A DNA stretch of 44,150 nucleotides from a virus (lineage: Duplodnaviria; Heunggongvirae; Uroviricota; Caudoviricetes): positions 1 through 44,150 of IMG/VR virus record IMGVR_UViG_3300045988_030968, one strand, 5' to 3'. The notes below the pieces were generated by a model. That model had not been told where the DNA came from. It searched no databases and was given only the letters and a program-made list of their open reading frames with translations. A program made the translations under genes and the position numbers. Positions 278-44,150 of this stretch are shown piece after piece (the stretch's first letter is position 1; every line of letters starts with the position of its first letter).

Positions 278-2275
278 ATGTCAAGCGGATGCGGTGACGT
301 TTTAAGCCTGGCGGATTTACAAACCGCCAAGAAACATCAGATTTTCGAGGCCGAGGTTATCACTGGCAAATCCGGCGGTGTCGCCGGTGGTGCCGATATT
401 GATTACGCGACAAATCAGGTTACTGGACAGACGCAGAAGACACTCCCCGCCGTGTTGCGTGACACTGGTTTTTCTCCTGTAGCGTGGGACTTTTCTACCG
501 GCGGCACGCTAACTGTTAATGACCGCGACAAAGTTGTTTATGACCCGGTGAGTAAAACGTGGTACTCATACGCGGGTACGCTTCCGGTTGTTGTCCCTGC
601 ATCGTTTAACCCGGTCGGTAACGCTAACTGGAAGCCGCAGACCGACCCATATCTACGCGATGATTTAGCAAACACGGATGATGTGCAACTCGGCGACGCC
701 ATGGTCGGGGTTAAATCTGTACTGGCCGGAGCCGTTGGGAGAACCCTACATAGCAAAGTTAGCGACGTGGTTAGTATTTATGACTTTGGCGCCTCATGGG
801 ATGGTGCATTACACCCGTTAAGTGAACGATTCTCCACGCTAACCGCTGCTCAGATGGTCTATCCGTTTGTAACCAGTCTTGACCAGTCTACCGACTACGC
901 AGCTATCCAGGCAGCGTGCGACTCCAAAAAGACGGTACTAATCCCCAAAGGAACTGGCTTTGTAAATTCAACTATCTATTTCAATAATAGCGTCAGAATC
1001 GTCGGGGAGAACACCGACGGCATCAACCGTGCCCAGTCGTTTATATCCGTTGACGGGAACATATCCCTCTTTGCGCTCGCTCAGGGTAGCTCTTCCGGCG
1101 GGACGAAAATGATTCAACTGTTCATTGACGGACTGTATATCTTCTACAATCCAGGAGATACGCCAACCGTCACAACAGGAAATAGTGGGAAGATAGCATT
1201 TAATTTCTATTCCACTGAAGCCGGTACTACCGGGCTTGAAATGTCTGAGATTAAAAACTGCACCGTACACGGTGCATGGCGCTGTTTCTACGACGCCACC
1301 GGAACTTACCTTACTAAGCTGCAAAACGTATGGGCGCGGAATTGCCACGACGGCTTTATCAAGGCGCTTGGTACGACCATTTTGATGGAGACTTGTTACG
1401 CATCTGGGTGTGTCTCCCCTTATCAATTTGGTGCCGTCATGACGGTAACAATGCTTAATTGTGCGATGGACCAGTCAAGCATTACGACGGCTGGTGGTTC
1501 ATTCGGTGGAGCAGGTGTCCATTTCATTAACTCGCACAGCGTTAACATTGTGGGATTTGATGCGGAAGGAAATATAATTTCCACAGATGGTAGTGGGGAT
1601 GCAACTCTTTTCCATTTTGAGAATACTAATGGCAAAATATCTGGCCTAACGGCTCATCAAAACCAGATGAAAACCGTAGCCCCCGCAGCAAGTGGCACTG
1701 TTTCTTTTATAAAGGCGTCTGGAACAAGCCAGGTTATAATCGATTCTTCTGAGGATGACTTGTCGGAGAACGCAATCCCTTACTCCGGAACGGGAGGATA
1801 CCCTATTACGATATACGCTAAGGATGCAACATCCAGAATCGACGTGTACAGCGGACGTTGGCGCGCTCCTGCAGGCGGTTCACCGGCTTTATCAGTGGTT
1901 AGCCAGGGGAATGTTAACTGGTTCTGCCCGCCGATATCCGGTACTGTTTCTGGCGGGTACACCCAACAAGTATCATCCACTGGTCTACAGACACCTGGTT
2001 TCTACACAGCAAAGGGTGCGCAAGCCGTAAGTGCCAGTACGCAAACAACATTGTTTGCATTGCCAAATATGCAGGGGATGTATCTCATTAGTGTATGGGG
2101 TTCCGGCAGCGGCACAAACTACTCTTCTACACAACTAGCGATGTATGATGGCTCATTAACGCTAACGCCATTAAAAGCTGGGGCATTCATAACATTTTCT
2201 TCATCGGGAAGGAATGTAGCGATAACAAGTCAGGGCACGGGAACATTTAACTGGACGTATACAAAACTAGGATAA
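278..2275 (+). CDS. Tailspike / receptor-binding protein (possible polysaccharide depolymerase)
   Basis: 665 aa; RBS AAAGAGG then ATG 278; N-terminal motif YSYAGTLPVVVPASFNPVGNANWKP typical of tailspike anchor domains; Gly/Ser/Thr/Asn-rich C-terminal region; lower GC than genome. Confidence 0.65.
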   Translation: MSSGCGDVLSLADLQTAKKHQIFEAEVITGKSGGVAGGADIDYATNQVTGQTQKTLPAVLRDTGFSPVAWDFSTGGTLTVNDRDKVVYDPVSKTWYSYAGTLPVVVPASFNPVGNANWKPQTDPYLRDDLANTDDVQLGDAMVGVKSVLAGAVGRTLHSKVSDVVSIYDFGASWDGALHPLSERFSTLTAAQMVYPFVTSLDQSTDYAAIQAACDSKKTVLIPKGTGFVNSTIYFNNSVRIVGENTDGINRAQSFISVDGNISLFALAQGSSSGGTKMIQLFIDGLYIFYNPGDTPTVTTGNSGKIAFNFYSTEAGTTGLEMSEIKNCTVHGAWRCFYDATGTYLTKLQNVWARNCHDGFIKALGTTILMETCYASGCVSPYQFGAVMTVTMLNCAMDQSSITTAGGSFGGAGVHFINSHSVNIVGFDAEGNIISTDGSGDATLFHFENTNGKISGLTAHQNQMKTVAPAASGTVSFIKASGTSQVIIDSSEDDLSENAIPYSGTGGYPITIYAKDATSRIDVYSGRWRAPAGGSPALSVVSQGNVNWFCPPISGTVSGGYTQQVSSTGLQTPGFYTAKGAQAVSASTQTTLFALPNMQGMYLISVWGSGSGTNYSSTQLAMYDGSLTLTPLKAGAFITFSSSGRNVAITSQGTGTFNWTYTKLG

Positions 2276-11328: not shown

Positions 11329-11352
11329 TATTTGTTCTCCTGTTTATTTAGG

Positions 11353-15438: not shown

Positions 15439-15644
15439 TGGAAGAATTATTTGAAGAACTGAAACATCATAGACTGGAGAAAGTGCATTTCCAGGTAAAC
15501 AGATACGAAGTTATTTTATTCGACGGCCCAACTATTTCTTCCGGGGTATGGAAGGACCCGCTAAAAGTTTACGTGCACTCCGAACGGCATCGAATCATGA
15601 TGCTCGTGCCGACGACTCTGAGGGAGGTTGCCGTAAATGAATAA
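15438..15644 (+). CDS. Hypothetical small protein
   Basis: ATG overlaps upstream stop. Confidence 0.5.
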   Translation: MEELFEELKHHRLEKVHFQVNRYEVILFDGPTISSGVWKDPLKVYVHSERHRIMMLVPTTLREVAVNE

Positions 15645-15903
15645 CGCTGAACTGGAAAAAGTCTCTGACACCCTTCATAAGGTACGGGTCATGCGCCGGG
15701 GTGCCGGGCTGGAGCAGTTTTATAACATGTGGCGCACAGCGACGCGCGACCCTGAGTTTCTGCGGACAGGTTATTATTTCATTAAAGGCGTTATTCCGAT
15801 TCGCGCCCGCGGGGATTACGGTTGGGTGCGCGAGACACCTAATCTTATGTGGTGTTGGTACTGCGGTGAGTTTTGGGTGCGCGTTAAAGAGAAGATGGGG
15901 TGA
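15637..15903 (+). CDS. Hypothetical small protein
   Basis: Overlapping start/stop with neighbours. Confidence 0.5.
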   Translation: MNNAELEKVSDTLHKVRVMRRGAGLEQFYNMWRTATRDPEFLRTGYYFIKGVIPIRARGDYGWVRETPNLMWCWYCGEFWVRVKEKMG

Positions 15904-18996: not shown

Positions 18997-19480
18997 TGGG
19001 CTGCATTTCACCGCTGCGTTCGAGGGTTTCCGTGGAACTGCATACAAAGCAACAAAGAACGAAAAACACTGGACTATAGGCTGGGGCCATACCGGGCCTG
19101 ATGTGTACGAAGGGCAGAAGATTACCGAAGGTCAGGGGTTGCTGTTGCTGAACCGCGATATGCAGTGGGCTGTGAAAGCAGTCGATGAAGTCGCGCACCC
19201 ATCGCTGACACAGGCTCAGTTTGACGCCGTTGTTGACCTGGTGTTCAACGCAGGGACTGGCGTGATTGCGGCTACGACAGGGACGGGTAAGGCACTACGG
19301 CGGGGAGACATCCCTACATTACGGCACAAGATGAGTCAGTTCATCAACCAGCGCAACCCGAAAACCGGTAAACTTGAGCCTGTGCTCGGCCTTCGTCGCC
19401 GTACCGCCGGGCGTCTGGCACTGTTCGACGGCAAACCGTGGCGGGAGGCTGAGGCTATCGGGCGCGCGGTGAAAGGTTGA
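18974..19480 (+). CDS. Endolysin, GH24-type lysozyme (muramidase)
   Basis: GLHFTAAFEGFRGTAYKATKNEKHWTIGWGHT catalytic region; GTG 18974 preceded by GGAGGA; track ORF begins 18923. Confidence 0.75.
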   Translation: MSRNISDNGLHFTAAFEGFRGTAYKATKNEKHWTIGWGHTGPDVYEGQKITEGQGLLLLNRDMQWAVKAVDEVAHPSLTQAQFDAVVDLVFNAGTGVIAATTGTGKALRRGDIPTLRHKMSQFINQRNPKTGKLEPVLGLRRRTAGRLALFDGKPWREAEAIGRAVKG

Positions 19481-19545
19481 CACCTAAGACTAATCCGACG
19501 ATACTTAAATCACCTCCTGTTCCATCCCTATGCGCTCCAGTTTTA

Positions 19546-19579
19546 TCCCGGCCCTGACCCAGCCGGGATTTTTTTTTAT
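19546..19579 (+). terminator. Strong rho-independent terminator after lysis genes
   Basis: TCCCGGC-N9-GCCGGGA hairpin followed by a 9-T run. Confidence 0.7.
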
Positions 19580-19599
19580 CTATCCTATGTAATGACTAG

Positions 19600-19628
19600 T
19601 TGACTATTACTTACGACCCTACTATATT
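19600..19628 (+). promoter_or_regulatory. Sigma70-type promoter
   Basis: TTGACT, 17-bp spacer, TATATT; about 34 nt upstream of ATG 19662. Confidence 0.5.
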
Positions 19629-19661
19629 TACTCCATCGACAACGAGAACGGAGTAGAGAAG

Positions 19662-19895
19662 ATGGTTACAGATAAAAGCACCCTTAAACTAAAACTACGA
19701 GACGCGGTTAATTGCTCTTTGTATTCATGTACAGATGCCGAGCAGCGTGAACTTGTAAAACTAACTATAGTAGAGTTCTTCTCTGCAATAGGCATGGAGG
19801 ACAGCGATTACGTCGAAGTGCTTTCTAACTGTGGCGGATTAGATGCAGATACGGACGACGCGGTAGACGAGCTGATTAAGGAATTTGACCAATGA
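19662..19895 (+). CDS. Hypothetical small acidic protein
   Basis: 77 aa; first ORF after promoter 19600. Confidence 0.5.
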   Translation: MVTDKSTLKLKLRDAVNCSLYSCTDAEQRELVKLTIVEFFSAIGMEDSDYVEVLSNCGGLDADTDDAVDELIKEFDQ

Positions 19896-20041
19896 AAATC
19901 ACTGATATCGAAGCATTCAAAGACGCACAACTGATGGCACGCATCGCCGTTGGCAACCTGGGTGGAAGCATTCCTGCGGACTCGTTCTGGGCCGCCGCGA
20001 TGCAGGCACTGAAAGCAGCTTATGCAGGAGAGAAGAAATGA
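19892..20041 (+). CDS. Hypothetical micro-protein (49 aa)
   Basis: ATGA overlaps at both ends; ends ...AYAGEKK. Confidence 0.4.
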   Translation: MKITDIEAFKDAQLMARIAVGNLGGSIPADSFWAAAMQALKAAYAGEKK

Positions 20042-20232
20042 AAAATATAATCCCGGAAGTTGGTGAAGGTTGTTTCGTTGTTTCTTATTTAGACGGAGAT
20101 GAGTACGTTGATTGCGGCCAGTTTCAGCAATCTGAGGATGCAGGGGCTTACGCCGCGAAGCTAGTAGGTACTACGCCACTAGAAGATGTTCGTATCGTAT
20201 TCAATATAGAACTCGCAGGAGAGAAGAAATGA
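20038..20232 (+). CDS. Hypothetical small protein
   Basis: 64 aa; ends ...ELAGEKK using same 18-bp junction sequence as the preceding gene. Confidence 0.5.
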   Translation: MKNIIPEVGEGCFVVSYLDGDEYVDCGQFQQSEDAGAYAAKLVGTTPLEDVRIVFNIELAGEKK

Positions 20233-20387
20233 GCGAACAAGGTCCAGCAAACCAGCCATTACGAGTAGGCCGTAAAGTCAGTCACACCCCGTTCCCGACA
20301 CGCGAGGAACTGATGAAACGCAACAGTTTCCCGGGGCCGGACAAGAACAAGTATCTCAATCGCATGTGGGGAGAGCGTAAAGAATGA
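20229..20387 (+). CDS. Hypothetical micro-protein (52 aa)
   Basis: ATGA overlaps at both ends. Confidence 0.4.
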   Translation: MSEQGPANQPLRVGRKVSHTPFPTREELMKRNSFPGPDKNKYLNRMWGERKE

Positions 20388-20554
20388 AAAAGTTAATTGC
20401 AGATGTTGAGCTTGGTGATGTTATCCGTATTGATGACGCCTACGGCGGCTACGACGTAGTGGTGAAGTGCATCAAGTGGGATTCTATGCTGCCGTTAGTC
20501 ACGATTAACCGTGAAGTCATGTTCGCTAAAACTGATTGGGTAGAGGTTCGATAA
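20384..20554 (+). CDS. Hypothetical micro-protein (56 aa)
   Basis: ATGA overlap upstream; TAATG overlap downstream. Confidence 0.4.
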   Translation: MKKLIADVELGDVIRIDDAYGGYDVVVKCIKWDSMLPLVTINREVMFAKTDWVEVR

Positions 20555-20727
20555 TGACTAACAACGAATACGAGAAACTTAGCGTAGAAGCGGCGACCGG
20601 TGAATCTGAAATAGCGTGGATTGACGCCAACATCGAGCACTACCTACGGCAAGTAGACATCCTTATGGAACGCCGCCGCGAACTTATCAATCGCTTCAAC
20701 CTTAACAAAGGTGATACCAATGCCTAA
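20554..20727 (+). CDS. Hypothetical small protein
   Basis: Internal ATG of track ORF 20536..20727. Confidence 0.45.
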   Translation: MTNNEYEKLSVEAATGESEIAWIDANIEHYLRQVDILMERRRELINRFNLNKGDTNA

Positions 20728-25363: not shown

Positions 25364-26440
25364 ATGCTATTAACTTTAGCACCACAGGGTTTATCTATGA
25401 GCTTACTTACATCCCTAATCAGCCACCAGATATGGCTGCAACGCACCGCATCCGGTGAAGTGAAAGACCTCGCGCCGTTTCTTCAGGAAATGAGGGGCGA
25501 AATAAAACGGCAGGTGCTGTTATTCGGCGACGACGGGCGAAGCACTGCGCGTCTGAATAAACTGTTACGCGACCTTGAAGAAGCACTAACCGGGCTTACA
25601 GGTGACTGGCAAGCAAAACTGGCAGAAGACCTCAAGGAACTGGCAGCGTATGAGGCCGAGTGGAACACAAAGACACTGGCAGCCAACGTTAACGCGGAAT
25701 TTGTTACGCCTACCGCTGAACAGGTGTGGGCCGCCGCCGAGTTTCAACCCTTATCATTAAGCGACAAGCCGGTCGATTTCACTAAGCTGATGTCTGGCTG
25801 GGGTGAAACGGAGGTCGCGCGCCTGGTAACTGGCGTTAAGATGGGTTTCGTTCAAGGCCAAACCACACGGCAGATTGTTAAGAATGTCGTAGGCGCTGGC
25901 GGACTGGCCGACATCTCTGAGCGCAACGCCGCTACGGTAATCCGCACCGCGCTATCTCACGTGTCCAACGAAGCCCGCAACGAGACGTACCGCCAGAACG
26001 ACGACATCATCGAGAAATATGAATGGGTGTCTACGCTTGATAGCCGTACCAGCACGATTTGCAGAGCCAGAGACGGAATGACATGGGAAATTGGTAAAGG
26101 GCCGATGCCCCCAGCCCATCCGAATTGTCGGTCGTGCACGGCTCCGGTAATCAGTTCCGAGTTCGACTTCCTCGATAAAGGCGCAAAACGCGCGGCTAAG
26201 GGCGCGAACGGCGGTACTCAGGTAAGCGCGGACACCACTTACTACGAGTTCCTGAAACAACAACCGGCATGGTTTCAGGATGAAGCACTCGGTCCTGTTC
26301 GCGGTAAGATTTTCCGTAACAGCGGTATATCGCCGGAAGAGTTTCGCGTAATATCTGTAGATGGTTTCGGGAATCCGCTCACGCTTAAGCAGATGGCGGA
26401 ACTCGATAAACGTGTTGCTGATTATCTGAAAGGGGATTAA
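25364..26440 (+). CDS. Head morphogenesis protein (Mu F / SPP1 gp7-like minor head protein)
   Basis: Conserved C-terminal region STLDSRTSTICRARDGMTW...HPNCRSC. Confidence 0.7.
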   Translation: MLLTLAPQGLSMSLLTSLISHQIWLQRTASGEVKDLAPFLQEMRGEIKRQVLLFGDDGRSTARLNKLLRDLEEALTGLTGDWQAKLAEDLKELAAYEAEWNTKTLAANVNAEFVTPTAEQVWAAAEFQPLSLSDKPVDFTKLMSGWGETEVARLVTGVKMGFVQGQTTRQIVKNVVGAGGLADISERNAATVIRTALSHVSNEARNETYRQNDDIIEKYEWVSTLDSRTSTICRARDGMTWEIGKGPMPPAHPNCRSCTAPVISSEFDFLDKGAKRAAKGANGGTQVSADTTYYEFLKQQPAWFQDEALGPVRGKIFRNSGISPEEFRVISVDGFGNPLTLKQMAELDKRVADYLKGD

Positions 26441-26901
26441 TGATGGGCTTTTTCAAAGTAACTGACGTACCGTCGCGTCGCGTAGTCCAGTACGCCCGCG
26501 TGTCTGGCTCTGGTGAGAATGTGGTGTTTATTGAAGATGAAAGTGTACTAGGTACACCGGTAGACGATATGCCGTTTGCGGATAAGACCGGTATTGCGCT
26601 ACCAGCGGCGGGCATGCTTTATGAGATTCCGTATCTGGCTGATGCTGGCGACGTGTATTTCTCTGAGCAACCGCAGGACACCGAACTGACAGACGGCAGT
26701 GCAACTCTCACTGTCGAAGTTAAAGCTGGTAAAGCACCATATGCGCTGACCTGGTACAAAGATGGTAAGGAAGTGGTCAACGCCCCAGAAGAGGCTTTGT
26801 CTCTGACGGTTAATGCGGTAGGGGAATACTTCGTTAAAGTTACCGATGCCGGTGGTGTGGAGGCTGTCAGCAAAGCGGCGAAGGTCACTAAGCCAGAATG
26901 A
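26440..26901 (+). CDS. Ig-like domain protein
   Basis: C-terminal TLTVEVKAGKAPYALTWYKDGKEV; paralogous motif in 29983..30324. Confidence 0.5.
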   Translation: MMGFFKVTDVPSRRVVQYARVSGSGENVVFIEDESVLGTPVDDMPFADKTGIALPAAGMLYEIPYLADAGDVYFSEQPQDTELTDGSATLTVEVKAGKAPYALTWYKDGKEVVNAPEEALSLTVNAVGEYFVKVTDAGGVEAVSKAAKVTKPE

Positions 26902-26904
26902 TAA

Positions 26905-26933
26905 AAGGCCCCTTCCGGGGCCTTAGTTTTATT
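26905..26933. terminator. Bidirectional terminator
   Basis: AAGGCCCC-TTCC-GGGGCCTT with T-runs on both strands; overlaps stop of minus-strand gene. Confidence 0.6.
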
Positions 26934-27213
26934 GCTTTCCTAATGCTTTCTTGATCGCGCTGTTTGCCAGATTTAATGGATGGTCTTCATGGCAATCCTC
27001 GGGAGATACCGCGCAAACATCCTCAACGTAATCGCGAAGCTGGCGAAGTGCTTCAAGTAACTCTGGTGCAGAGGAAATAAGTTTTGTGTTAGCCAATTTT
27101 ACTGAGTCCTTTTCCCTCATACTCATTACCTCCGCCACATAAACATCACCCGCCCAGATAGCAGTTCCGCGATTAACCCATGCACCGTCTGTACCTTTAA
27201 ATTCGTGTGTCAT
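26929..27213 (-). CDS. Reverse-oriented accessory (moron) gene, hypothetical 94-aa protein
   Basis: ATG 27213 with AGGAG upstream; own promoter (27238-27270) and terminator; opposite to flanking structural genes. Confidence 0.6.
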   Translation of the reverse strand: MTHEFKGTDGAWVNRGTAIWAGDVYVAEVMSMREKDSVKLANTKLISSAPELLEALRQLRDYVEDVCAVSPEDCHEDHPLNLANSAIKKALGKQ

Positions 27214-34525: not shown

Positions 34526-34754
34526 ACTCATCAATATTGCTTCGATACTCCCGTAACTTCTCCAGACTTTCAATTGCTTCTGCTAAGTCGGTCCCGGTGT
34601 CCTTGTGGCCGCGCAAGCCCATACACAATAGCTTCTTCAATGCGTGCTGTAGCGCCGGGTCGCGGATATCGAAGGCGCGTAGCACGTCATAAACGTCTAC
34701 TGCCATAGTGCTGCCGTGAGTGTTTGTCATTGTGCGGTTATATTTTGAAGTCAT
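34524..34754 (-). CDS. Hypothetical small protein, last gene of reverse-oriented cassette
   Basis: 76 aa; ATG overlaps upstream stop (ATGA). Confidence 0.5.
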   Translation of the reverse strand: MTSKYNRTMTNTHGSTMAVDVYDVLRAFDIRDPALQHALKKLLCMGLRGHKDTGTDLAEAIESLEKLREYRSNIDE

Positions 34755-35881
34755 CCCAGCATCTCCGGTGAAATAGTTAAACGTGCGACCTCGCCGTATT
34801 CGGCGCTATAAGTAATTACGTTTGCACTGCGGCCTGACATCCATCCGCCGCGGGAGGCGTAGGCGTCTTTAGCCGCTAAGGTGCGGTGTTGCTCAACAAT
34901 CATGTTACGGCTTTCTACAATCTTCTGGTGATGCAGGTGGCCTACGTGAGCGTAGCTGTACTCGCTTTCCCCGAATGCTTTTCTGAACTTAGATATCATA
35001 ATTGGTTCGACCACCTCAAACCGACATTTATGACCATGTGTGAAGAACAGCGTCGTTTTGCCGTGGCGCACCATCTTGTACACATCCGGCGACGTATCAA
35101 CGAACACACGCGGCTCGTTGTCATACAGCGTACTGAACATCTCCGCTAACCAAATCATACCCGATTCGTCGTGGTTTCCTTGCACGATAAGCAAGCGAAC
35201 ATTTTTATGCTTAACCAGAGCCATATCAACAACACGGCGCACCATACGAATCATGTAGCGCACCAGTTTCTGATAGCGGGTGTCCGCATCAAGAATATGA
35301 CCACTCGCTGGCGTAACGGCATCAAGACTATCGAAGTGCGCGAGGTCGCCAAGCAGGTTAATAACCCCAGTTCCCGCGTCCGGTGCTTTCTGAAATGCAG
35401 CATCGAACCAGCGAGAAAACAGGTCTTCAGCAATCTTCATATCCCAGTCGTCGCCGCTTTCATCGGCCCAGGCCAGCATACCGAGATGGAAATCAGATAC
35501 CGTGTAAAGATTGAGTAGTTTATCGTCGCGTTTAGCCCGAATGGCTTTAACAGGAGCAACGGGGGTAATCTCCGACTTCATCCCTTCGATTACGGCTTTC
35601 ATCAACTCTACCTGACGTTCGGCATCGGTGTCGGTCTTAACCCATTGCAGCTTAGTGTTGCCGAACTCGTCCACAAGTGACGACGTGCCTTTAATCTTGT
35701 AGCCGTCTGGTACAAGGTGACTAACGTCGCGCCCGTGGCCCACGCCTTTCTTTGCCAGCTTCGCTTTACGGATACGAATAACGCGGTCTGAGATGCCGTA
35801 TTTACGGGCGATATCGATATTCTTCATCCCGGCGTTCAATTCTTCCTGTAACTGTTCGTCGGTTATTTTCTTCTGGGCCAT
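34751..35881 (-). CDS. HTH-containing calcineurin-like metallophosphoesterase
   Basis: 376 aa; N-terminal HTH KNIDIARKYGISDRVIRIRKAKL; phosphoesterase motifs DFH, GDLAHFD, GNHDE, THGH, GHLHH. Confidence 0.6.
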   Translation of the reverse strand: MAQKKITDEQLQEELNAGMKNIDIARKYGISDRVIRIRKAKLAKKGVGHGRDVSHLVPDGYKIKGTSSLVDEFGNTKLQWVKTDTDAERQVELMKAVIEGMKSEITPVAPVKAIRAKRDDKLLNLYTVSDFHLGMLAWADESGDDWDMKIAEDLFSRWFDAAFQKAPDAGTGVINLLGDLAHFDSLDAVTPASGHILDADTRYQKLVRYMIRMVRRVVDMALVKHKNVRLLIVQGNHDESGMIWLAEMFSTLYDNEPRVFVDTSPDVYKMVRHGKTTLFFTHGHKCRFEVVEPIMISKFRKAFGESEYSYAHVGHLHHQKIVESRNMIVEQHRTLAAKDAYASRGGWMSGRSANVITYSAEYGEVARLTISPEMLG

Positions 35882-36694: not shown

Positions 36695-37059
36695 ACGCGC
36701 TGTACAGGTTCGCCACCTACGAGTTCGTTGATAAGCATAAAATCAGAGAGTTTGATTCTATAGCCGACGGACATGAACAGGCGCTTATCGCGATGGGTGT
36801 AATCGATAAGAAAAAACGTGCAGCGCGACGGGGTGGGCCGGAATGCCCGCCCCTTTTTATATCCACCTTTGAGACGTATTGCGACATTAAGTTTACGCGA
36901 CACGTGCGCGAGGACGCTGTAGTATTGTTTGCAAGAGAATCCGTTACGTGGCAAGACCTGAAAGCCTATCTCGATGTTACGCAAAAACAGCTTAGCCTGT
37001 TCGAGATAGACATTATCATGGGCTTAGAAGCAATCTTTGAAGGTAGAAATCATGGCTGA
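36278..37059 (+). CDS. Tail assembly chaperone frameshift product (gpGT-like, -1 shift at 36685-36691)
   Basis: -1 frame is open from 36670 to 37059; heptamer G GAA AAG immediately before G stop. Confidence 0.5.
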
Positions 37060-39475
37060 TACCGCTAGTTTGATAGTACGAGTATCATCGACCGGCGTCG
37101 ATAAAACCACATCACAACTGAACGGGCTTACTAAGGCGGCGGGGGCTGCCGCGGCAGCCGTCGTTAGTCTGGAAACCGCTAAGCAGGTGTTCAGTGCGCT
37201 GGTGGACTCCCAGCGCAACTTCGATAAGCTGAATTCCGGCCTCATCACGATGACCGGGAGCGCTGAGAACGCGGCTAAGGCTTTCAGCGTCCTGCAACAG
37301 TTCGCAAAAGAAACCCCATACGGGCTTAACCAGGCAGTGGAAGGCTTTACTAAGCTGGTGGCTCTGGGCCTGAACCCCAGCAAAGAAGCGTTAATCTCCT
37401 ACGGCAACACCGCCGCGGCTATGGGTAAAGACCTTAATCAAATGATTGAGGCTGTGGCGGACGCCAGTACCTTTGAATTTGAGCGCTTAAAAGAGTTCGG
37501 CATCAAGTCCTCCCAACAGGCAGATACAGTGTCGTTCACGTTCCGCGGCGTAACGACTACTGTTAAAAAGAACTCCGAAGAGATTCAGAAATACCTTCTG
37601 AACATCGGCAACACGGATTTCGCCGGGGCGATGGAGACGCGCTCTAAGACGTTAGACGGGCAGTTATCCAGCCTAGCGGACTCCTTTGACGGCCTTGTAC
37701 TCGCGGTGGCGCAATCAGGTTTCGGCGACGCCGTAGGCGAGCAAGCTGCGACCGCGGAAGATGCTATCACGGCGCTTACCGACGCCATCGCGTCTAATGA
37801 GATAGCCGCTACACTCCAGGATTGGGTGACACTGTTCAATGAATCGTTCAAGTTTATTTCTGATGCCTTGAACGACCTGGCATTTGACACCGAGGACAAA
37901 TCCGCGGATATGTCCGACTCGCTAGGGACTATACCGGACGCCATCCGTGAGTGGTTGCCTGACATCCAGCAGACATTCCACGAGGTTATTGCGTGGTTCC
38001 AGCGCATTGACGATTACGCGGTAGCGTTAGGCCAGACCCTTGCCGACGTGTTTGACCCGAGCAAAACGGCAGCGCTCACATTTAAAAACCTAACCGCAGA
38101 GGCTGACGCTGCGTACGCCGCCAGTATAAAACGTGCAGAGGCTGAATCACAGGCCATCACCAACAGGTCTAAGCAGCGTAAGAAAGAAATTGAGGAACAG
38201 CGCAAGCAGTATGACGAGCGCAAGAAGCAAGAAATTGACTTAGCCAGCCTTGTTAATAAAAAGGGCGGAACTGGCGGAACCGGAAATACCAACGACAAAG
38301 ACGCGAAAGCCGCTGCTAAGAAAGCGGAGCAATTGCGCAAACAGGCCCAGGATTATCTGGACACTTTGGCGCGTCAGAACAACGATGAGTTAAAGGCTAT
38401 TGACGCGCAGGAACAGCAGAAACTTAAAGAGGCCGCTAAATACCGAAAAGAAGGGGCGCTAACCGCTGAAGAGTATGAAAAGGCGAAAACCGCAATAGTT
38501 CTTCAATACGGACAAAAGCGCCAGGACGCTCTTGATAAAGAGTTAGCCGAGGAGCAGAAAAAACTGCAACAAGGCGTGGCTGTTCTGGCGTCAATCGACC
38601 CTATCGCAAACTTACAGCTCGAGCGGCAGAAGAGACTCGCAGTTATAGAGGAATACGAGGCCCAAGAAAACTCAGTACATGAAGTCGCGTTGCAAGCACG
38701 GGCAGAACTGGACAAGCAATACAACGAAGGGTTGGCCGCCGCAGCTGAGGAGCGTTTCCGCAGCCAATCCGAATGGAACAACATGTTAATGGACTCCCTC
38801 GATGCGGTTGGTGCATCCGCGTCCAGTTCCATAGTCGGTCTTATTAACGGCACACAGACCGCGAGTGAGGCAATGGCAAACTTGGGCAGCGCCATTCTAT
38901 CCTCAGTCGTTTCAGGGCTAACACAGATGGGGGTGGAGTACCTGAAAAACATGATTATCGGGCAAACGGCATCCGCGGCGACTATCGCGACCGCATCGGC
39001 TACCGGCGCGGCGATTGCTGCAGCGTATGCCCCCGCCGCAGCGATGGCGTCCCTGGCTACTCTCGGGACAAACAGCGCCCCAGCGATGGCGGGCATCACA
39101 TCAACGGTGGCGAGTACCCAAGCGTTGGCCCTAACTGGATTCCGTGAACAAGGCGGGCAAATGAACGCTGGCGGCAGCTATCTTGTCGGCGAGCGTGGCC
39201 CTGAGATTATCAAGATGGCGGGGGCAGGGCGTGCGGTAAACGCAAGCCAAACACGGCAACAGTTAAACGGTAATAATAACGGAAATAGTGGGCCAGCCAA
39301 TATCAGCATTATAAATAACACCAGCGCACAAATTGGAAATACCAGTGTTGAGCAGGATGATGAAGGCCGTTTGCGTATCATCATAGAGGAGCAAGTTGCC
39401 GCTTCGCTGCAGAATAGTAACAGCAAAATATCGAAAGCGAGGAAGGCTACAAGAAACGCCCCTGGCTTTAAGTGA
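37052..39475 (+). CDS. Tail tape measure protein
   Basis: About 808 aa, Ala/Gln/Glu-rich coiled coil; start at internal ATG of track ORF. Confidence 0.8.
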   Translation: MADTASLIVRVSSTGVDKTTSQLNGLTKAAGAAAAAVVSLETAKQVFSALVDSQRNFDKLNSGLITMTGSAENAAKAFSVLQQFAKETPYGLNQAVEGFTKLVALGLNPSKEALISYGNTAAAMGKDLNQMIEAVADASTFEFERLKEFGIKSSQQADTVSFTFRGVTTTVKKNSEEIQKYLLNIGNTDFAGAMETRSKTLDGQLSSLADSFDGLVLAVAQSGFGDAVGEQAATAEDAITALTDAIASNEIAATLQDWVTLFNESFKFISDALNDLAFDTEDKSADMSDSLGTIPDAIREWLPDIQQTFHEVIAWFQRIDDYAVALGQTLADVFDPSKTAALTFKNLTAEADAAYAASIKRAEAESQAITNRSKQRKKEIEEQRKQYDERKKQEIDLASLVNKKGGTGGTGNTNDKDAKAAAKKAEQLRKQAQDYLDTLARQNNDELKAIDAQEQQKLKEAAKYRKEGALTAEEYEKAKTAIVLQYGQKRQDALDKELAEEQKKLQQGVAVLASIDPIANLQLERQKRLAVIEEYEAQENSVHEVALQARAELDKQYNEGLAAAAEERFRSQSEWNNMLMDSLDAVGASASSSIVGLINGTQTASEAMANLGSAILSSVVSGLTQMGVEYLKNMIIGQTASAATIATASATGAAIAAAYAPAAAMASLATLGTNSAPAMAGITSTVASTQALALTGFREQGGQMNAGGSYLVGERGPEIIKMAGAGRAVNASQTRQQLNGNNNGNSGPANISIINNTSAQIGNTSVEQDDEGRLRIIIEEQVAASLQNSNSKISKARKATRNAPGFK

Positions 39476-39520: not shown

Positions 39521-40918
39521 ATGAGCGAAGTATATTTCCCACGTAGCCTTAAGCCGGTGGTATCGAAAGGCTACTCAATGACCAGACGTAACAACGTCTG
39601 GAGTGTTGATTTAGCCGGCGGCGGTGTACGTCAGGGGCGCGACACGTATTACGACGTGTTCCCTATAAGCGTAACCCTGGTTACATCGGCGCTGGGGCGG
39701 CAGGCGTTTCTGTCGTTCCTCGAAAAAGTCGATGGTGGTGCGTCAAGTTTCTGGATGGCGCATGACTTCGGCATGGGTATTCAGGATTACCAAGTAACAA
39801 TCACGTCAACCATCGCAGAGTCCACAGAAGACGGCATTAACTGGACGATTACTTTCACGGCAACCGCTGAGAAATCGCCGTTCCAGAACCTCGAGAACCA
39901 GTGCCTGATTAACAATCTGCCCGATTTGTACGGCTGCTATGGTGACTGCCTGGGTAGTTTCCTGAAAATATATGCTAACTATGAGACGACATTCCCGCGC
40001 ATTTGGAGTAACGAAGGCCCTGCTGGCTATCCGCCGATTAACCTTCTGGCATCTACACTGGATAGCCGAGTCATTTACGAAGGGCCGCAGATTTACTATA
40101 TCAACCGCAACGGCAATCTTGTGCAATCAGCGGTTAATCAATGGCCTCTTACGTTTATCGGTGGTGTTGCTGTTGGGCGCGTTCCCCCTGAAGCCGCAGC
40201 GGAAAACAGAATCAAATTTTCAGATGATTTCTCTAACGGTATATGGACCGGAAACAGGCGTGTCACAATAACAAAAGTATCTGATTCTGGGTATGAGAAT
40301 GCCTTTAGCTTAGTGGCTCCCAACTCTGAAAATAATAACCACCAACTTGGGCAAACTGTCGTCCTTGATGACTTTAGCTCAATAGTGCTTTCTGTGTTTG
40401 TGAAACCAGATGGGTATAACATCATTCGTTTACGCCTGACAGACCCCATATCGTTGTGGCGAGATGTAGTTATCAATATATCAACCGGCGACAAAATATC
40501 GGGAACTGGAGAATACCATCTGACAGAAGTTGGTAACGGATGGAAAAGATTGTCCCTTTATGTATCCCCGAGAGAGGAGGCTGGGTTATCACGCATTATA
40601 TACGGAATATGGATATATTCTAATGATGGGCAACCTGACTTTTCTGGCGATGGTGCGTCAGGAATACTCGCGTATGGGGCGCAGGTTGAAATCGGCGGTC
40701 AGCCTTCATCATTAATTGCAACAGAAAGCAATTATAGGGCCCGACCGTCGGCATCGGCAAAAGTAGCCATGAATGGTGCGACAAGCATCGACATTACATA
40801 CTCTGATGGTTCTACCGTAAACGTGCCCGCAGTAGATAACTACGCCACCATCCCCCAAGCCGATTCGGCGTGGGGCAGTAAATATATTACTCGTATCGAC
40901 TTTAATGTGGACGGTTAA
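39521..40918 (+). CDS. Minor tail protein, gpM-like N-terminus with large C-terminal extension
   Basis: N-terminal SKGYSM...AFLSFLEKVDGGASSFW resembles lambda M; residues ~240-410 encoded by low-GC DNA. Confidence 0.55.
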   Translation: MSEVYFPRSLKPVVSKGYSMTRRNNVWSVDLAGGGVRQGRDTYYDVFPISVTLVTSALGRQAFLSFLEKVDGGASSFWMAHDFGMGIQDYQVTITSTIAESTEDGINWTITFTATAEKSPFQNLENQCLINNLPDLYGCYGDCLGSFLKIYANYETTFPRIWSNEGPAGYPPINLLASTLDSRVIYEGPQIYYINRNGNLVQSAVNQWPLTFIGGVAVGRVPPEAAAENRIKFSDDFSNGIWTGNRRVTITKVSDSGYENAFSLVAPNSENNNHQLGQTVVLDDFSSIVLSVFVKPDGYNIIRLRLTDPISLWRDVVINISTGDKISGTGEYHLTEVGNGWKRLSLYVSPREEAGLSRIIYGIWIYSNDGQPDFSGDGASGILAYGAQVEIGGQPSSLIATESNYRARPSASAKVAMNGATSIDITYSDGSTVNVPAVDNYATIPQADSAWGSKYITRIDFNVDG

Positions 40919-40921: not shown

Positions 40922-41437
40922 ATGAGCCAGGAATCAGTAGAAGCCGCCTATCGCCGTAAGCTGGCCTCAAATCCCGACGGCGAGATGGACTACATAACGT
41001 TGCAAATAAGCCACCCGTTGCTGTCAAAGACGTACTATCTTGTGCGCGGGCTGCAGGAACTTACGGCAACACTGGAGACAGGCGAAACAATCACGTTCGA
41101 GCCAACCCCGATGGAAGCGTCGGGAGCGGCCAACAACAGTGATATGGACCAGACGACGACGTTTACTTTACCGGATATTCTCAATCAACTGGATGATGAG
41201 ATGGGTAAAATCCCGATGAGTAACACCGAGTTGCCGAAGTTCGTCTTCCGCCGTTACGTCAGCTCCGACCTGTCTTATCCTGCTGACGGCCCTGTCGTGT
41301 ACGAGCTACAGGCCATCAACCAAGAGAAAGGTGAGTTCTCCGCTGATGTCGGTACGCCTATGCTGAACCAACGAAGCACTGGTATACTGATGACACCTAA
41401 AGAGATACCGTTATTACGCGGCCTGTTGACCACATGA
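40922..41437 (+). CDS. Minor tail protein (gpL-like position)
   Basis: 171 aa between gpM-like and gpK-like genes. Confidence 0.45.
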   Translation: MSQESVEAAYRRKLASNPDGEMDYITLQISHPLLSKTYYLVRGLQELTATLETGETITFEPTPMEASGAANNSDMDQTTTFTLPDILNQLDDEMGKIPMSNTELPKFVFRRYVSSDLSYPADGPVVYELQAINQEKGEFSADVGTPMLNQRSTGILMTPKEIPLLRGLLTT

Positions 41438-41799
41438 ATATTAACGACTACACGGGCATACCTTACGACTTTCGTAAACGCAATTGCTGGCATCACGTTC
41501 GCATTGTCCGCGCGGATGCCGGATTAGAGACCCCCGCGTTCGACGTTACAAGCCCAACGGCGATTAACGATGCGTTCGACGAAGGGCATCGCGATACAAA
41601 GGGGCTTACAAAAATCGATAGGCCTGAAAACTTCTGTGCCGTGCTTATGGGGTATCGCCGTGGTGGTCGTATCGTGTGGCACGCGGGAGTTTACTTTGAC
41701 GGGATGGTGAGTCATTGCGAACTTGCCTCACGTCAGGTACGGCTTGACAGGCTGGCGGACCTCAGAGACACGTACACGGAGATTGAATTTTGGCGATAA
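41434..41799 (+). CDS. Tail assembly protein, gpK-like NlpC/P60-type
   Basis: Cys/His signature NCWHHV and WHAGVY. Confidence 0.55.
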   Translation: MNINDYTGIPYDFRKRNCWHHVRIVRADAGLETPAFDVTSPTAINDAFDEGHRDTKGLTKIDRPENFCAVLMGYRRGGRIVWHAGVYFDGMVSHCELASRQVRLDRLADLRDTYTEIEFWR

Positions 41800-41855: not shown

Positions 41856-44150
41856 ATGCCGATGGAGTTTGTCGTTAACCACATTCCCGACGGCGTACCT
41901 GTACGCGTCTACCTCGGCGAGATTGGCGATGATACTGATGTCACCGACGACTTCGACGCGCTTAAAGACGAAGACGCTGTGTACCACATTATTGAGGGTG
42001 CTGGTGGTGGCATCGGCGACGCTATCGGGAGTGTATTCAGTTTCATCCTTAAGCCAATTGCCAAGTTGTTCGGGCTTAACACCGCGGCTAACGCGAATTA
42101 TTCTGCTACCAACAACCAGGCTACGTCGCCTAACAACAGTCTCACCGACCGCTCAAACAAACCCCGTCCTTATGAGCGCTCCTATGATATATGCGGGACA
42201 GTGCAGACTATCCCCAATGACCTGATGCAGACGTATAAGGTGTTTAATGCCGCAGGGGCGCTTATTGAATACGCATACTATGACGCCGGTCGAGGGTATC
42301 TGCATATTGAGGAAGACGGTGTAACCGAGGCAGATACCAGAATCAGCGAGATAACTGGCTCGTCGGTGACGGTATATTCTCCTTACACTTCGCCGAATAA
42401 TACCAGCGCCCCACAATTGCATATCGGCGACCCGATAGACCAGAAGTTGTACATTACATTTAAAAATGCCGATGTCGATGGCGCTGTTCTTCCTGCGCCT
42501 AATGACATCGCGATAGACGTCGCTCTGTATACTGTACAACGGCAGGGCCCAACAGGCATTGTCGTTGGTAGTGATGCCGGTTTTGACGAAATAATTTCAG
42601 TAGGTGACTTGGTCTATTTTGACAACGTCTACGCAGATACGACTCCAACCTATCAAGGCGATGAAGTTAACCTGGATGGTCGCTATACGGTACTTTCAGT
42701 GAGCGAGACCACACTTATCGTTGATATAAGCCCAAATCAATCGGTATGGAACCAAATAGGAACCGCCCAATGGGAAATAGACGCCAACGTAGGTAATCAT
42801 CTTATCGGCCCGGCGGACACTTACGCGGCTTCTCTCTCTGAATGGGCGTACATCACCCGCGGTACTGTCGACCGTGTTGTAGCCAATGTCGCCGCCAGCA
42901 ACGGCATGTATAAATACAACGGCGATTATAATCGTGCCTCCGTAACGGTGGAACTGCAATACCAGATGGTGGACGAATTGAAACAGCCCGTTGGCGATAT
43001 ATTCACCGTGCAAGGCACTGTTACAGGGAGAAACACTGATTACACTGGTATCACCTTATATGGTAGTTTGCCTACTGCTTCCCGATTCCGCGCCCGTATG
43101 CGTCGTGTTTCTGACACCGATAAAGATTTTGAGGGTACTGTTAGTGACGAGGTTACTTTCACTAATCTGTACGGGCAGTCACTGGATACAACCCCGCACT
43201 ACGGCAACCGCACTACCGTACACTGCGCTCGTAAACAAACGCCACGTGCCGCGGAGGTGTCCGAACCGGAACTACGCATGATTGCTACCGAGATGTGCTA
43301 CAAATACCTCGGAAATGGCGTATTCGATACGGCAATGACACCGAACACTCAGGCCGTGCAGTCACTAATCCGCTTGGCTCGCGACCCCGCGGTGGGTAAT
43401 CTGGAACTGACAACGGCAAACATGGACAAGTTACTCGCCGTTCAGGAAGAAATTGAGTCTTATTTTGGTAGTAAATTAGCTGGACAATTCTGCTACACGT
43501 TCGACGATTACGACACAACTATGCAGGACATTGTTCAGACCATAGCGGAAGCCGTGTTCTGTACAGCGTACCGTAAAGGTGCAGATATTATGCTGCGATT
43601 CGACCGTCCGGTCGCGGGGCCGGAGATGGTGTTCACTCACCGCAGCAAAACGACCGGTACAGAGAAATGGACGCGCACGTTCAACGATTCGACAACCTAC
43701 GATAGCCTGTCGTTCTCGTACATCGACCCGGATACGAACGTACAGGAGACAATTTATATCCCGGAAGAACTCGGTGCAAATACCGAGGAGTACGAATCGA
43801 AGGGCGTGCGCAATTATCAGCAGGCTTACTGGCAGGCGTGGCGTCGATATCAGCGCAACACGTTAAGTAAAGTTGTCGTAGAGTTCGAAGCTACTGAAGA
43901 AGGGGCGCTCGCTACACCCGGCGGCGTAATCAGCGTGGTTAAAGGTTCACGTATTGCTCCGCAGGATGGTTATGTTGTTGCCGTTAATGGGCTTACGCTG
44001 ACGCTGTCGCAGCCGGTTATGTTCACCCCCGGCGACGACCACTCCATCATCCTCAAGAAGCGCGATGGCTCGGTGCAGAGTATCTCCGTTATCAAAGGAA
44101 GCCACGACCGCGAAGTGATTATGCTCTCTGCACCGGAGGAGGCAATCTAC
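41856..44150 (+). CDS. J-like central tail fibre / tail tip protein, 5' part (continues into 1..265)
   Basis: Frame open from ATG 41856 to window end and in phase with ORF 20..265; Gly-rich hydrophobic N-terminal segment; no stop in window so absent from ORF track. Confidence 0.6.
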   Translation, partial: MPMEFVVNHIPDGVPVRVYLGEIGDDTDVTDDFDALKDEDAVYHIIEGAGGGIGDAIGSVFSFILKPIAKLFGLNTAANANYSATNNQATSPNNSLTDRSNKPRPYERSYDICGTVQTIPNDLMQTYKVFNAAGALIEYAYYDAGRGYLHIEEDGVTEADTRISEITGSSVTVYSPYTSPNNTSAPQLHIGDPIDQKLYITFKNADVDGAVLPAPNDIAIDVALYTVQRQGPTGIVVGSDAGFDEIISVGDLVYFDNVYADTTPTYQGDEVNLDGRYTVLSVSETTLIVDISPNQSVWNQIGTAQWEIDANVGNHLIGPADTYAASLSEWAYITRGTVDRVVANVAASNGMYKYNGDYNRASVTVELQYQMVDELKQPVGDIFTVQGTVTGRNTDYTGITLYGSLPTASRFRARMRRVSDTDKDFEGTVSDEVTFTNLYGQSLDTTPHYGNRTTVHCARKQTPRAAEVSEPELRMIATEMCYKYLGNGVFDTAMTPNTQAVQSLIRLARDPAVGNLELTTANMDKLLAVQEEIESYFGSKLAGQFCYTFDDYDTTMQDIVQTIAEAVFCTAYRKGADIMLRFDRPVAGPEMVFTHRSKTTGTEKWTRTFNDSTTYDSLSFSYIDPDTNVQETIYIPEELGANTEEYESKGVRNYQQAYWQAWRRYQRNTLSKVVVEFEATEEGALATPGGVISVVKGSRIAPQDGYVVAVNGLTLTLSQPVMFTPGDDHSIILKKRDGSVQSISVIKGSHDREVIMLSAPEEAIY
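44096..44150. repeat. 55-bp direct repeat identical to 1-55
   Basis: Exact identity. Confidence 0.9.

What the first reader, a model, noticed from the sequence alone, without database searches (positions are those of the whole stretch)
40230..40740. Low-GC insert inside the gpM-like minor tail protein gene
Across roughly 40230-40740, 60-bp windows run about 40-43% GC against about 50-60% in the flanking parts of the same gene. The encoded segment is rich in Asn, Ser, Gly, Ile and Tyr and extends a gpM-like N-terminal domain to 465 aa. This composition break suggests a horizontally acquired domain at the tail tip, possibly a carbohydrate-binding or receptor-interacting module.
Basis: seen in the sequence. 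Interest (0 to 1): 0.5.

Follow-up and report, generated by a model that had tools for sequence, protein, structure and literature searches.

The report
Swappable sugar-binding-like domain on tail tip
The low-GC stretch is real and encodes a highly variable domain with a sugar-binding fold on the phage's distal tail protein; this domain has been swapped between different phage groups, and it is probably an extra host-adhesion module whose function has never been tested.

Summary
Window 40230-40740 is 44.0% GC against 50.6% for the window. The dip lies almost entirely at third codon positions (GC3 0.38 against 0.61 in the N-terminal domain) and is the lowest GC3 of any 180-codon stretch in the window.

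The gene (39521-40918) is the distal tail protein of a Kagunavirus. It belongs to the same family as Shigella phage Sf11 gp17 (PDB 9occ). Residues 1-162 form the ring domain. Residues 163-465 are an appendage that many relatives lack (166-aa form).

The window's allele also occurs on two other N-domain backbones. A Skatevirus-like contig shares a 293-nt tract at 98.3% identity. The alleles assort independently of the tailspike type.

Lateral exchange is shown. Glycan binding is inferred. This is a new member of a known kind, and interest is moderate.

The parts
39521..40918 (+). Distal tail protein (DTP) gene, 465 aa, long form with a C-terminal appendage
   Evidence: ORF listed. It lies directly after the tape measure gene and before the DUF1833 hub gene. 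A profile of the family matches the full length of Sf11 gp17, PDB 9occ_C, with E 1.7e-179.
39521..40006 (+). N-terminal DTP ring domain plus a predicted tailspike-adaptor helix (aa 1-162)
   Evidence: Matches phrog_384 positions 127-303, E 8e-37. The Sf11/Bas79-type DTP N domain matches the same PHROG in the same register. The segment is conserved in 568 phage records, including the 166-aa Jerseyvirus proteins. Helices are predicted at aa 128-131 and 143-153, with low pLDDT.
40007..40195 (+). Conserved proximal part of the appendage (aa 163-225)
   Evidence: The long and short forms diverge right after W162. Identity to the query across 120 homologues is 75-96% per 15-aa bin. Modelled as beta strands with pLDDT 86-94 in the appendage-only model.
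40196..40735 (+). Hypervariable low-GC3 cassette (aa 226-405): GTA head-spike-fibre domain with a CBM4-like beta-sandwich fold
40736..40915 (+). Conserved distal part of the appendage (aa 406-465)
   Evidence: Identity across 120 homologues is 72-98%. Modelled as beta strands with pLDDT above 90.
40175..40467 (+). Tract recently shared with a Skatevirus-like phage contig (L029)
   Evidence: There are 5 mismatches in 293 nt (98.3% identity), with dense mismatches on both sides. dS is 0.05 for aa 235-320, against 1.2-2.0 in the flanking conserved parts.
37037..39475 (+). Tape measure protein gene (context)
   Evidence: Pfam TMP_3 matches at E 1.4e-9 but at 38.4 bits, below Pfam's gathering score of 41. 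The precomputed Pfam hits for this gene's product on the source contig also list TMP_3.
40922..41437 (+). DUF1833 minor tail / hub protein gene (context)
   Evidence: PF08875 at E 1.3e-15. phrog_396 at E 1.3e-50.
41434..41799 (+). 121-aa minor tail protein gene (context)
   Evidence: phrog_329 'minor tail protein' at E 5.8e-12. Annotated as peptidoglycan endopeptidase in phage XY1.
41790..44150 (+). J-like central tail protein gene; it runs over the window end and continues at window 56-265
   Evidence: The source-contig locus L090 shows an 856-aa gene, and the window ends overlap by 55 nt.
278..2275 (+). Tailspike gene (665 aa), the primary receptor-binding protein, used here for the co-variation test
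   Evidence: The N-terminus matches tail spike PHROGs and the C-terminus matches phrog_8649. The gene lies 12 nt after the J-like gene on the circular contig.

Best explanation
The gene encodes the distal tail protein. In the solved homologue Sf11 gp17, this protein forms a six-fold ring between the tail tube and the tail tip.

Anatomy. Residues 1-162 are the ring domain plus a helix that, in Sf11, docks the tailspike trimers. Residues 163-465 are an optional outward-pointing appendage. Within the appendage, a conserved two-part beta region (aa 163-225 and 406-465) flanks a roughly 180-residue beta-sandwich (aa 226-405). That sandwich belongs to the 'GTA head-spike-fibre' domain family and has the fold of CBM4/16/22/61 carbohydrate-binding modules.

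Genetics. The low-GC span is this sandwich. It exists as many deeply diverged alleles. The alleles are exchanged between phages, and even between Kagunavirus and Skatevirus-like genera, by recombination in or near the conserved flanks and also inside the domain. All alleles share low GC at synonymous sites, which marks a common mobile gene pool.

Proposed function. By analogy with Sf11, six copies per virion would bind a host surface polysaccharide reversibly. That glycan would differ from the one the tailspike cleaves. The binding would raise adsorption or widen the range of usable hosts.

Shown: the anatomy, the family membership, the fold, the presence/absence polymorphism, the hypervariability, the lateral exchange, purifying selection within an allele, and independence from tailspike type.
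Inferred: the hexameric display and the glycan binding.
For: Composition. GC3 of aa 226-405 is 0.383 against 0.611 in the N domain, the lowest in the window. All 14 other long-form loci show the same dip, with GC3 0.40-0.46 against 0.61-0.70. Skatevirus-like loci show it too.

Variability. In 120 homologues, aa 136-225 and aa 421-465 are 75-98% identical to the query per 15-aa bin, and aa 406-420 are 72%. In aa 226-405 the per-bin identity is 14-42% in 11 of 12 bins, with one bin (aa 376-390) at 59%.

Presence/absence. The 166-aa form in Jerseyvirus and some Kagunavirus ends just after W162. 66 of 568 phage records have the long form.

Shuffling. There are 3 N-domain types and 8 V types, and the window's V type occurs with all three N types. 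On Skatevirus-like contig L029 the N domain is about 17% identical in amino acids, while window 40175-40467 is 98.3% identical in nucleotides.

Constraint. dN/dS within the window's V type is 0.06-0.14.

Identity. PDB 9occ_C (Sf11 gp17) matches over its full length. RcGTA head-spike fibre Rcc01080 matches aa 222-429 at E 4e-25. NCBIfam GTA_spike_fiber scores 78.2 bits against a cut-off of 36.

Functional precedents. Rcc01080 binds the R. capsulatus capsule (PMC7296036, PMC10218006). Evolved Dit CBMs promote adsorption to EPS-positive lactococci (PMC10688798). In Sf11 the appendage points away from the tail (PMC12724387).

Distribution. The domain recurs singly or in tandem in thousands of phage tail and virion proteins.
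Against: 1. No binding data exist for this protein or for Sf11 gp17. The Sf11 authors call the appendage's function unknown (PMC12724387).
2. Pfam's CBM_4_9 model does not match the window protein. One distant relative reaches only 24.1 bits, below the 25.9-bit cut-off.
3. V type does not co-vary with tailspike receptor-binding domain in 15 loci. If the module binds a glycan, it is therefore not simply the tailspike's substrate.
4. Variation is spread over strands as well as loops (1.20 against 1.38 bits). This is not the pattern of a fixed scaffold with a hypervariable binding loop.
5. The jelly-roll fold also occurs in some enzymes and in purely structural domains.
6. Natural short forms show that the appendage is not needed to build an infective virion.
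Confidence: 0.62

Rival explanations
1. The appendage has a purely architectural role. It acts as a spacer or collar that shields or positions the six tailspikes, or helps bridge the six-fold to three-fold symmetry change, and has no ligand of its own. Its variability reflects weak constraint plus hitch-hiking with recombination in the neighbouring host-range genes.
For: In Sf11 the same protein's helix docks the tailspikes and the ring bridges the C6/C3 mismatch (PMC12724387). The closest solved homologues of the domain sit in myophage baseplate wedge proteins, which are structural (PMC10329688). V type is independent of tailspike type.
Against: Close relatives with the same N domain and the same adaptor segment lack the appendage entirely, so it is not needed for assembly. 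dN/dS of 0.06-0.14 within an allele shows strong constraint, not drift. Deep allelic diversity with cross-genus exchange is the pattern seen in host-interaction modules. The nearest functionally tested homologue binds capsule (PMC10218006).
Confidence: 0.13
2. The domain binds something other than the host receptor layer. It could bind environmental or animal glycans such as mucus, keeping virions where hosts live. Alternatively, it could be a surface that diversifies to escape recognition by host or animal immunity.
For: V type is uncoupled from tailspike specificity. The domain also decorates capsids in RcGTA (PMC7296036) and occurs in giant virion proteins. The same genome carries a Hoc-like head decoration protein.
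Against: The module sits at the tail tip beside the tailspikes, which is the site of first host contact. The tested homologue (Rcc01080) and the positional analogue (evolved Dit CBMs) bind host polysaccharides (PMC10218006, PMC10688798). No evidence for immune targeting of this protein was found.
Confidence: 0.12
3. The domain is catalytic, for example a small polysaccharide lyase or esterase that helps the phage cross a glycan layer.
Against: The best non-phage matches are non-catalytic CBMs, with the lowest rmsd (2.2 A over 131 residues for CBM4-2). No enzyme family matched in Pfam or NCBIfam.
Confidence: 0.05
4. The GC dip is a chance fluctuation or a by-product of amino-acid composition and has no evolutionary meaning.
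For: On raw GC the span is only at the 4.4th percentile, and seven other troughs in the window are as deep or deeper.
Against: GC1 and GC2 equal those of the N domain. Only GC3 drops, to the lowest value of 4788 windows of 180 codons. The dip recurs in every allele in every relative examined, and its edges coincide with the hypervariable cassette.
Confidence: 0.02

Closest known systems
Shigella siphophage Sf11 gp17, distal tail protein (PDB 9occ; Subramanian, Dover & Parent, J Virol 2025, PMC12724387)
   Same: The gene sits in the same place, after the tape measure gene. The length is similar (457 against 465 aa). The architecture is the same: a ring domain plus a C-terminal appendage. The conserved parts of the appendage are nearly identical to the Kagunavirus consensus. 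Both N domains match phrog_384 in the same register.
   Different: The N domains are not detectably similar by direct BLASTP or hhalign. Sf11-type N domains are about 17% identical to the window's. The V allele differs. In Sf11 only residues 3-165 were modelled, and the appendage was left as 'unknown function'.
RcGTA head-spike fibre Rcc01080 (PDB 6tb9 and others; NCBIfam NF048003 GTA_spike_fiber)
   Same: The V domain is homologous by sequence: E 4e-25 for the family profile, and 78.2 bits against a 36-bit cut-off for the window protein. Rcc01080 binds capsular polysaccharide in experiments (PMC7296036, PMC10218006).
   Different: Rcc01080 is a separate 325-aa protein anchored to capsid vertices by an N-terminal peptide. 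Here the domain is fused to the distal tail protein at the tail tip. Only residues 2-10 of Rcc01080 are resolved, so no experimental structure of the homologous part exists.
'Evolved Dit' proteins of siphophages that infect Gram-positive hosts (for example J-1 Dit CBM2, PDB 5ly8; Skunavirus evoDit, PMC10688798)
   Different: No sequence relationship was found. In evolved Dits the CBM is an insertion inside the Dit C-terminal domain. Here it is part of an appendage added after the last shared residue, W162. The hosts here are Gram-negative, and the phage also carries enzymatic tailspikes.
Baseplate wedge proteins of Pseudomonas myophages: E217 gp45 (8env) and Pa193 gp46 (9b45)
   Different: They are contractile-tail baseplate components of about 500 aa with a different N-terminal part. 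No ligand binding has been reported for the homologous domain.
Lambda gpM (Pfam Phage_min_tail)
   Same: It holds the same position in the gene order and plays the same general role as the ring protein between tube and tip (this rests on my own knowledge of lambda tail-tip structures).
   Different: No Pfam match of any kind was found. gpM is about 109 aa and has no appendage.

Membership tests
Distal tail protein of the Sf11 gp17 / phrog_384 kind | Gene lies immediately downstream of the tape measure gene and upstream of the hub and J-like genes | tested here: met
   TMP 37037-39475, this gene 39521-40918, DUF1833 gene 40922-41437, 121-aa gene, then the J-like gene. The order is the same in Ent1, ZCEC5, XY1, Bas79 and AB4P2.
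Distal tail protein of the Sf11 gp17 / phrog_384 kind | N-terminal domain homologous to the experimentally modelled ring domain (Sf11 gp17 residues 3-165) | tested here: inconclusive
   Both match phrog_384 in the same register: window aa 1-163 to profile 127-303 (E 8e-37), and Bas79/Sf11-type aa 1-156 to profile 127-285 (E 4e-48). Direct BLASTP (E 0.10) and hhalign (probability 0.3%) are not significant. Foldseek of the poorly modelled N part against 9occ_D gives only E 7e-4.
Distal tail protein of the Sf11 gp17 / phrog_384 kind | C-terminal appendage homologous to that of Sf11 gp17 | tested here: met
   The family profile aligns to 9occ_C over 1-457 at E 1.7e-179, and the conserved segments are nearly identical.
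Distal tail protein of the Sf11 gp17 / phrog_384 kind | Forms a hexameric ring and docks tailspike trimers through an adaptor helix | not testable with these tools
   Only a low-confidence helix prediction is available, at aa 143-153. This needs cryo-EM of a Kagunavirus tail tip.
GTA head-spike-fibre domain (NCBIfam NF048003) | Score above the curated cut-off over most of the model | tested here: met
   78.2 bits against a cut-off of 36, E 1.1e-21, aa 224-403 against model positions 3-175 of 182.
GTA head-spike-fibre domain (NCBIfam NF048003) | Binds host capsular polysaccharide, as shown for Rcc01080 | not testable with these tools
   The precedent comes from the literature only (PMC7296036, PMC10218006).
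Carbohydrate-binding module, beta-sandwich of the CBM4/9/16/22/61 type | Jelly-roll beta-sandwich fold that superposes on solved CBMs | tested here: met
Carbohydrate-binding module, beta-sandwich of the CBM4/9/16/22/61 type | Matches a CBM sequence family model (for example Pfam CBM_4_9) | tested here: not met
   No Pfam family matches at E up to 0.1. A distant multi-repeat relative reaches 24.1 bits against a cut-off of 25.9. A few relatives carry a precomputed PF02018 hit.
Carbohydrate-binding module, beta-sandwich of the CBM4/9/16/22/61 type | Demonstrated sugar binding | not testable with these tools
   Needs glycan arrays, ITC or cell-binding assays.
Evolved Dit (Gram-positive siphophages) | CBM inserted within the Dit C-terminal (galectin-like) domain | tested here: not met
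Lambda gpM (Pfam PF05939 Phage_min_tail) | Match to the family model | tested here: not met
   No Pfam family matches at E up to 0.1.
Diversity-generating retroelement target | A template repeat of the variable region elsewhere in the genome | tested here: not met
   The V region has no second DNA or protein copy in the window. A reverse transcriptase gene was not searched for.

The most novel reading that the evidence does not exclude
The V cassette is a second specificity determinant that assorts independently of the tailspike. Kagunavirus and Skatevirus-like phages would then carry a two-key host-recognition system: a tailspike for one glycan and the distal-tail-protein cassette for another, such as capsule, colanic acid, ECA or LPS core. 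Either key can be replaced separately by sub-genic exchange across genera. On this reading, V type predicts host range as much as tailspike type does, and the appendage is a natural plug-in site for retargeting phages.
Probability: 0.35. Interest if true: 0.6.

Novelty: new member of a known kind. Interest (0 to 1): 0.42.

Why it matters
Kagunavirus and related small siphophages are being collected as therapeutic and model phages. Their host range is currently explained by the tailspike alone (PMC11990801). The only structural study of this protein family left the large appendage of the distal tail protein as 'function unknown' (PMC12724387).

The analysis here gives that appendage a specific, testable assignment:
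- Its core is a hypervariable domain of the capsule-binding GTA head-spike-fibre family with a CBM-like fold.
- Individual alleles are under purifying selection.
- Alleles are exchanged across genera.
- Allele type is uncoupled from tailspike type.

If the domain binds a second surface glycan, V type would be needed to predict or engineer host range. The natural long/short polymorphism and the conserved flanks would make it an easy site for cassette swapping.

It also shows that a GC3 dip inside a structural gene can flag a mobile sub-genic module.

Tried and rejected
1. Amino-acid composition as the cause of the dip: rejected. GC1 and GC2 are unchanged and only GC3 falls. The enrichment of Ser, Gly and Ile is small, and Asn and Tyr are not enriched.

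2. Diversity-generating retroelement: rejected. No template repeat and no second copy of the domain occur in the window.

3. Embedded or antisense genes, or regulatory or RNA elements, in the low-GC span: rejected. The ORFs at 39972-40271 (+), 40138-40494 (-) and 40530-40715 (+) lie inside a gene whose own reading frame is under purifying selection, so I regard them as spurious; they were not themselves searched against any family library. Promoter-like and terminator-like sites are not above shuffled expectation, and there is no Rfam hit.

4. Co-variation of V type with the tailspike receptor-binding domain: tested and not found.

5. Conserved flanks as specially conserved DNA 'recombination arms': not supported. 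Their synonymous divergence is high (dS 0.2-2.0), so their conservation is at the protein level.

6. Skatevirus-like genomes as the low-GC donor: not supported as a simple story. Their backbone GC3 is 0.46-0.56, and their own V segments are lower still at 0.38-0.44.

7. A word-index protein search with aa 222-409 alone returned nothing, although a 95%-identical protein is in the database. I treat this as a tool artefact, and one search was lost.

8. The full-length AlphaFold model was poor (pLDDT 58). Only the appendage-only model built on a more diverse alignment was used for the fold assignment.

9. A direct link between the N domain and Sf11 gp17 or any PDB entry by pairwise or profile search failed.

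Full report
**1. The observation**

The gene is a single ORF, 39521-40918 (+), of 465 aa. The whole window is 50.6%, the 5' part of the gene 50.6% and the 3' end 50.0%. The 60-nt windows are 0.40-0.47 from 40181 to 40660 and rise to 0.52-0.53 after that.

Taken as raw GC, the dip is unremarkable. It lies at the 4.4th percentile of 511-nt windows, and seven other troughs are as deep or deeper.

The picture changes when the codon positions are separated. For aa 226-405, GC1/GC2/GC3 are 0.483/0.428/0.383. For aa 1-162 they are 0.488/0.438/0.611. The drop is therefore almost wholly synonymous. Only 11 of 4788 windows of 180 codons, taken from 39 ORFs, have GC3 of 0.383 or less, and all 11 lie in this gene.

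Amino-acid composition does not explain it.

**2. Whose gene this is**

The window is a circular metagenomic contig of 44,150 nt (ENA ERZ28575005). Its ends overlap by 55 nt. It is a Kagunavirus (Guernseyvirinae) by DNA and protein similarity.

The gene follows the tape measure gene. After it come a DUF1833 minor tail gene, a 121-aa gene, a J-like gene and the tailspike gene, which lies at window 278-2275 across the circular junction.

A profile of the family matches PDB 9occ chain C, Shigella siphophage Sf11 gp17, over its full length at E 1.7e-179. In Sf11, residues 3-165 form the distal-tail-protein (DTP) hexamer and a helix that binds the N-terminal helices of the tailspike trimers. A 'large extra appendage' in the C-terminal part points away from the tail. 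It was not modelled, and its function is stated to be unknown (PMC12724387).

The window's N domain (aa 1-162) is not detectably similar to the Sf11-type N domain by BLASTP or hhalign. However, both match phrog_384 in the same register. Pfam has no match, so the protein is a positional analogue of lambda gpM rather than a member of that family.

**3. The extension is optional**

In Jerseyvirus (Ent1 gp28) and in part of Kagunavirus (for example ZCEC5 and ten IMG/VR contigs), the protein is 166 aa. The long and short forms share ...TFPRIW (W162).
- The short form ends DPMQ*, overlapping the start of the next gene.
- The long form continues for 303 residues.

Of 568 phage records with a match, 66 carry the long form.

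**4. The low-GC span is a hypervariable cassette**

In an alignment of the query with 120 homologues, aa 136-225 and aa 421-465 are 75-98% identical to the query per 15-aa bin, and aa 406-420 are 72%. In aa 226-405 (nt 40196-40735), 11 of the 12 bins are only 14-42% identical (one, aa 376-390, is 59%), with entropies of 0.7-1.6 bits.

Every allele in 14 other long-form loci has the same signature. GC3 is 0.40-0.46 in the variable part and 0.61-0.70 in the N domain, although these alleles share only 18-32% amino-acid identity with the window's. The same holds in Skatevirus-like loci, where tailspike genes are also low in GC3. The dip is therefore a property of a shared pool of exchangeable modules. 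It is not the mark of a single recent capture.

**5. Lateral exchange is shown directly**

Clustering at 70% identity gives 3 N-domain types and 8 V types among 121 proteins. The window's V type occurs with all three N types:

| Protein | N-domain identity to window | V identity to window |
|---|---|---|
| P0001 | 92% | 95% |
| P0002 | 59% | 93% |
| P0003-P0006 | 16-18% | 92-94% |

P0005 lies on a Skatevirus-like contig with the gene order of Bas79 and AB4P2. Against that contig, window 40175-40467 has 5 mismatches in 293 nt, with dense mismatches on both sides. Synonymous divergence is 0.05 in aa 235-320 and 1.2-2.0 in the conserved flanks. Breakpoints therefore occur near the left flank and also inside the domain.

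No record in the GenBank phage collection carries the window's V allele at megablast level.

Within the allele, dN/dS is 0.06-0.14. The domain is under purifying selection and is not decaying.

There is no template repeat, so this is not a diversity-generating retroelement target.

**6. What the cassette is**

- NCBIfam NF048003 (GTA_spike_fiber domain) matches aa 224-403 at 78.2 bits, against a cut-off of 36.
- The family profile matches the RcGTA head-spike fibre Rcc01080 at E 4e-25. It also matches the baseplate wedge proteins E217 gp45 and Pa193 gp46 at E 3e-8.
- The full-length model was poor (pLDDT 58). The appendage alone, modelled with a more diverse alignment, gave pLDDT 89.6 and pTM 0.86, and it is all-beta.
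- An exhaustive search finds 6168 cluster representatives. Many carry 2-12 tandem copies in proteins of up to 3693 aa, and the ten I scanned all match PHROG 'tail protein' families and most also 'virion structural protein' families.
- The whole appendage also occurs on its own (291 aa) and fused to the N-terminus of lambda-type gpL.

**7. How it most likely works**

Rcc01080 binds the Rhodobacter capsule (PMC7296036, PMC10218006). CBM-bearing 'evolved' distal tail proteins of lactococcal phages promote adsorption to EPS-positive hosts. As here, long and short forms coexist there (PMC10688798).

The best-supported model is that six copies of the appendage, displayed on the DTP ring beside the tailspikes, bind a host surface glycan reversibly.

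I tested whether that glycan is the tailspike's substrate. In 15 loci (105 pairs):
- 9 pairs share V but have unrelated tailspike receptor-binding domains;
- 5 pairs share the tailspike domain (at least 94% identity) but have unrelated V;
- only 2 near-identical genomes share both (Spearman rho 0.07, p 0.48).

The four phages that carry the window's V type have four different tailspikes. Any ligand is therefore probably a different glycan, or the module serves another purpose.

Variation is spread over strands and loops. The alleles are old lineages rather than loop variants on one scaffold.

Binding itself is inferred, not shown. The rivals are listed with their tests: a structural role, non-host ligands or immune escape, and catalysis.

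**8. Comparison and novelty**

The protein is a member of the Sf11 gp17 type of DTP, and the variable domain is a member of a curated family. The concept of a DTP carrying a CBM is established for Gram-positive phages.

In the papers I could search, I did not find four points described:
- the assignment of the 'unknown' appendage to the head-spike-fibre / CBM4-like family;
- its cassette-like hypervariability and its GC3 signature;
- sub-genic exchange between Kagunavirus and Skatevirus-like phages;
- its independence from the tailspike.

I rate this as a new member of a known kind, of moderate interest.

Noticed in passing
window 1-55 and 44096-44150: The first 55 nt of the window repeat the last 55 nt, which is an assembly overlap of a circular or terminally redundant genome. 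The J-like tail gene (41790 onward) crosses this junction and ends at about window 265. The tailspike gene follows at 278-2275.
   Followed up: yes
window 278-2275 (tailspike), compared with L043, L089, L031 and L029: The tailspike has a conserved N-terminal anchor of about 160-180 aa and a swappable C-terminal part (phrog_8649). Its receptor-binding part is 94% identical to that of IMG/VR contig L043, whose DTP cassette is unrelated (26% identity). Phages that share the window's cassette have unrelated tailspikes.
   Followed up: yes
P0146, P0275-P0297 (Rahnella and other genomes; not in the window): The whole appendage, conserved flanks plus variable domain, also occurs fused to the N-terminus of lambda-type minor tail protein L (Pfam PF05100; 550-560 aa). 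It also occurs as a stand-alone 291-aa protein. It is therefore a portable decoration for different tail-tip proteins.
   Followed up: partly
window 34751-35881 (-) and the neighbouring small minus-strand genes: A DNA repair exonuclease gene (phrog_704) and a superinfection-immunity gene (Pfam Imm_superinfect) lie on the opposite strand, in the middle of the tail module between the tail tube and tail chaperone genes. Jerseyvirus has the same arrangement.
   Followed up: no
window 26440-26901; GC trough at window starts 26818-27172: A Hoc-like head decoration protein gene (phrog_3945) ends in another low-GC trough (minimum 41.9%). This may be a second surface-decoration module with deviant composition.
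   Followed up: no
window about 10376-11890 and about 14082-15690: These are the two deepest raw-GC troughs of the window (38.7% and 39.1% in 511-nt windows), deeper than the one under study. The first overlaps a 155-aa gene of unknown function (phrog_3127). The second was not examined.
   Followed up: no
tool behaviour: A word-index protein search with the variable domain alone (aa 222-409) returned no hit, although a 95%-identical protein (P0001) had been returned by the same database. A negative result from that tool should not be read as absence.
   Followed up: partly
H33, Escherichia phage vB_Eco_AMO_3701M (PQ474795.1), 19252-20638: The long-form gene matches in three pieces and is annotated as two hypothetical proteins. 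This suggests a split or frameshifted distal tail protein gene in that record.
   Followed up: no
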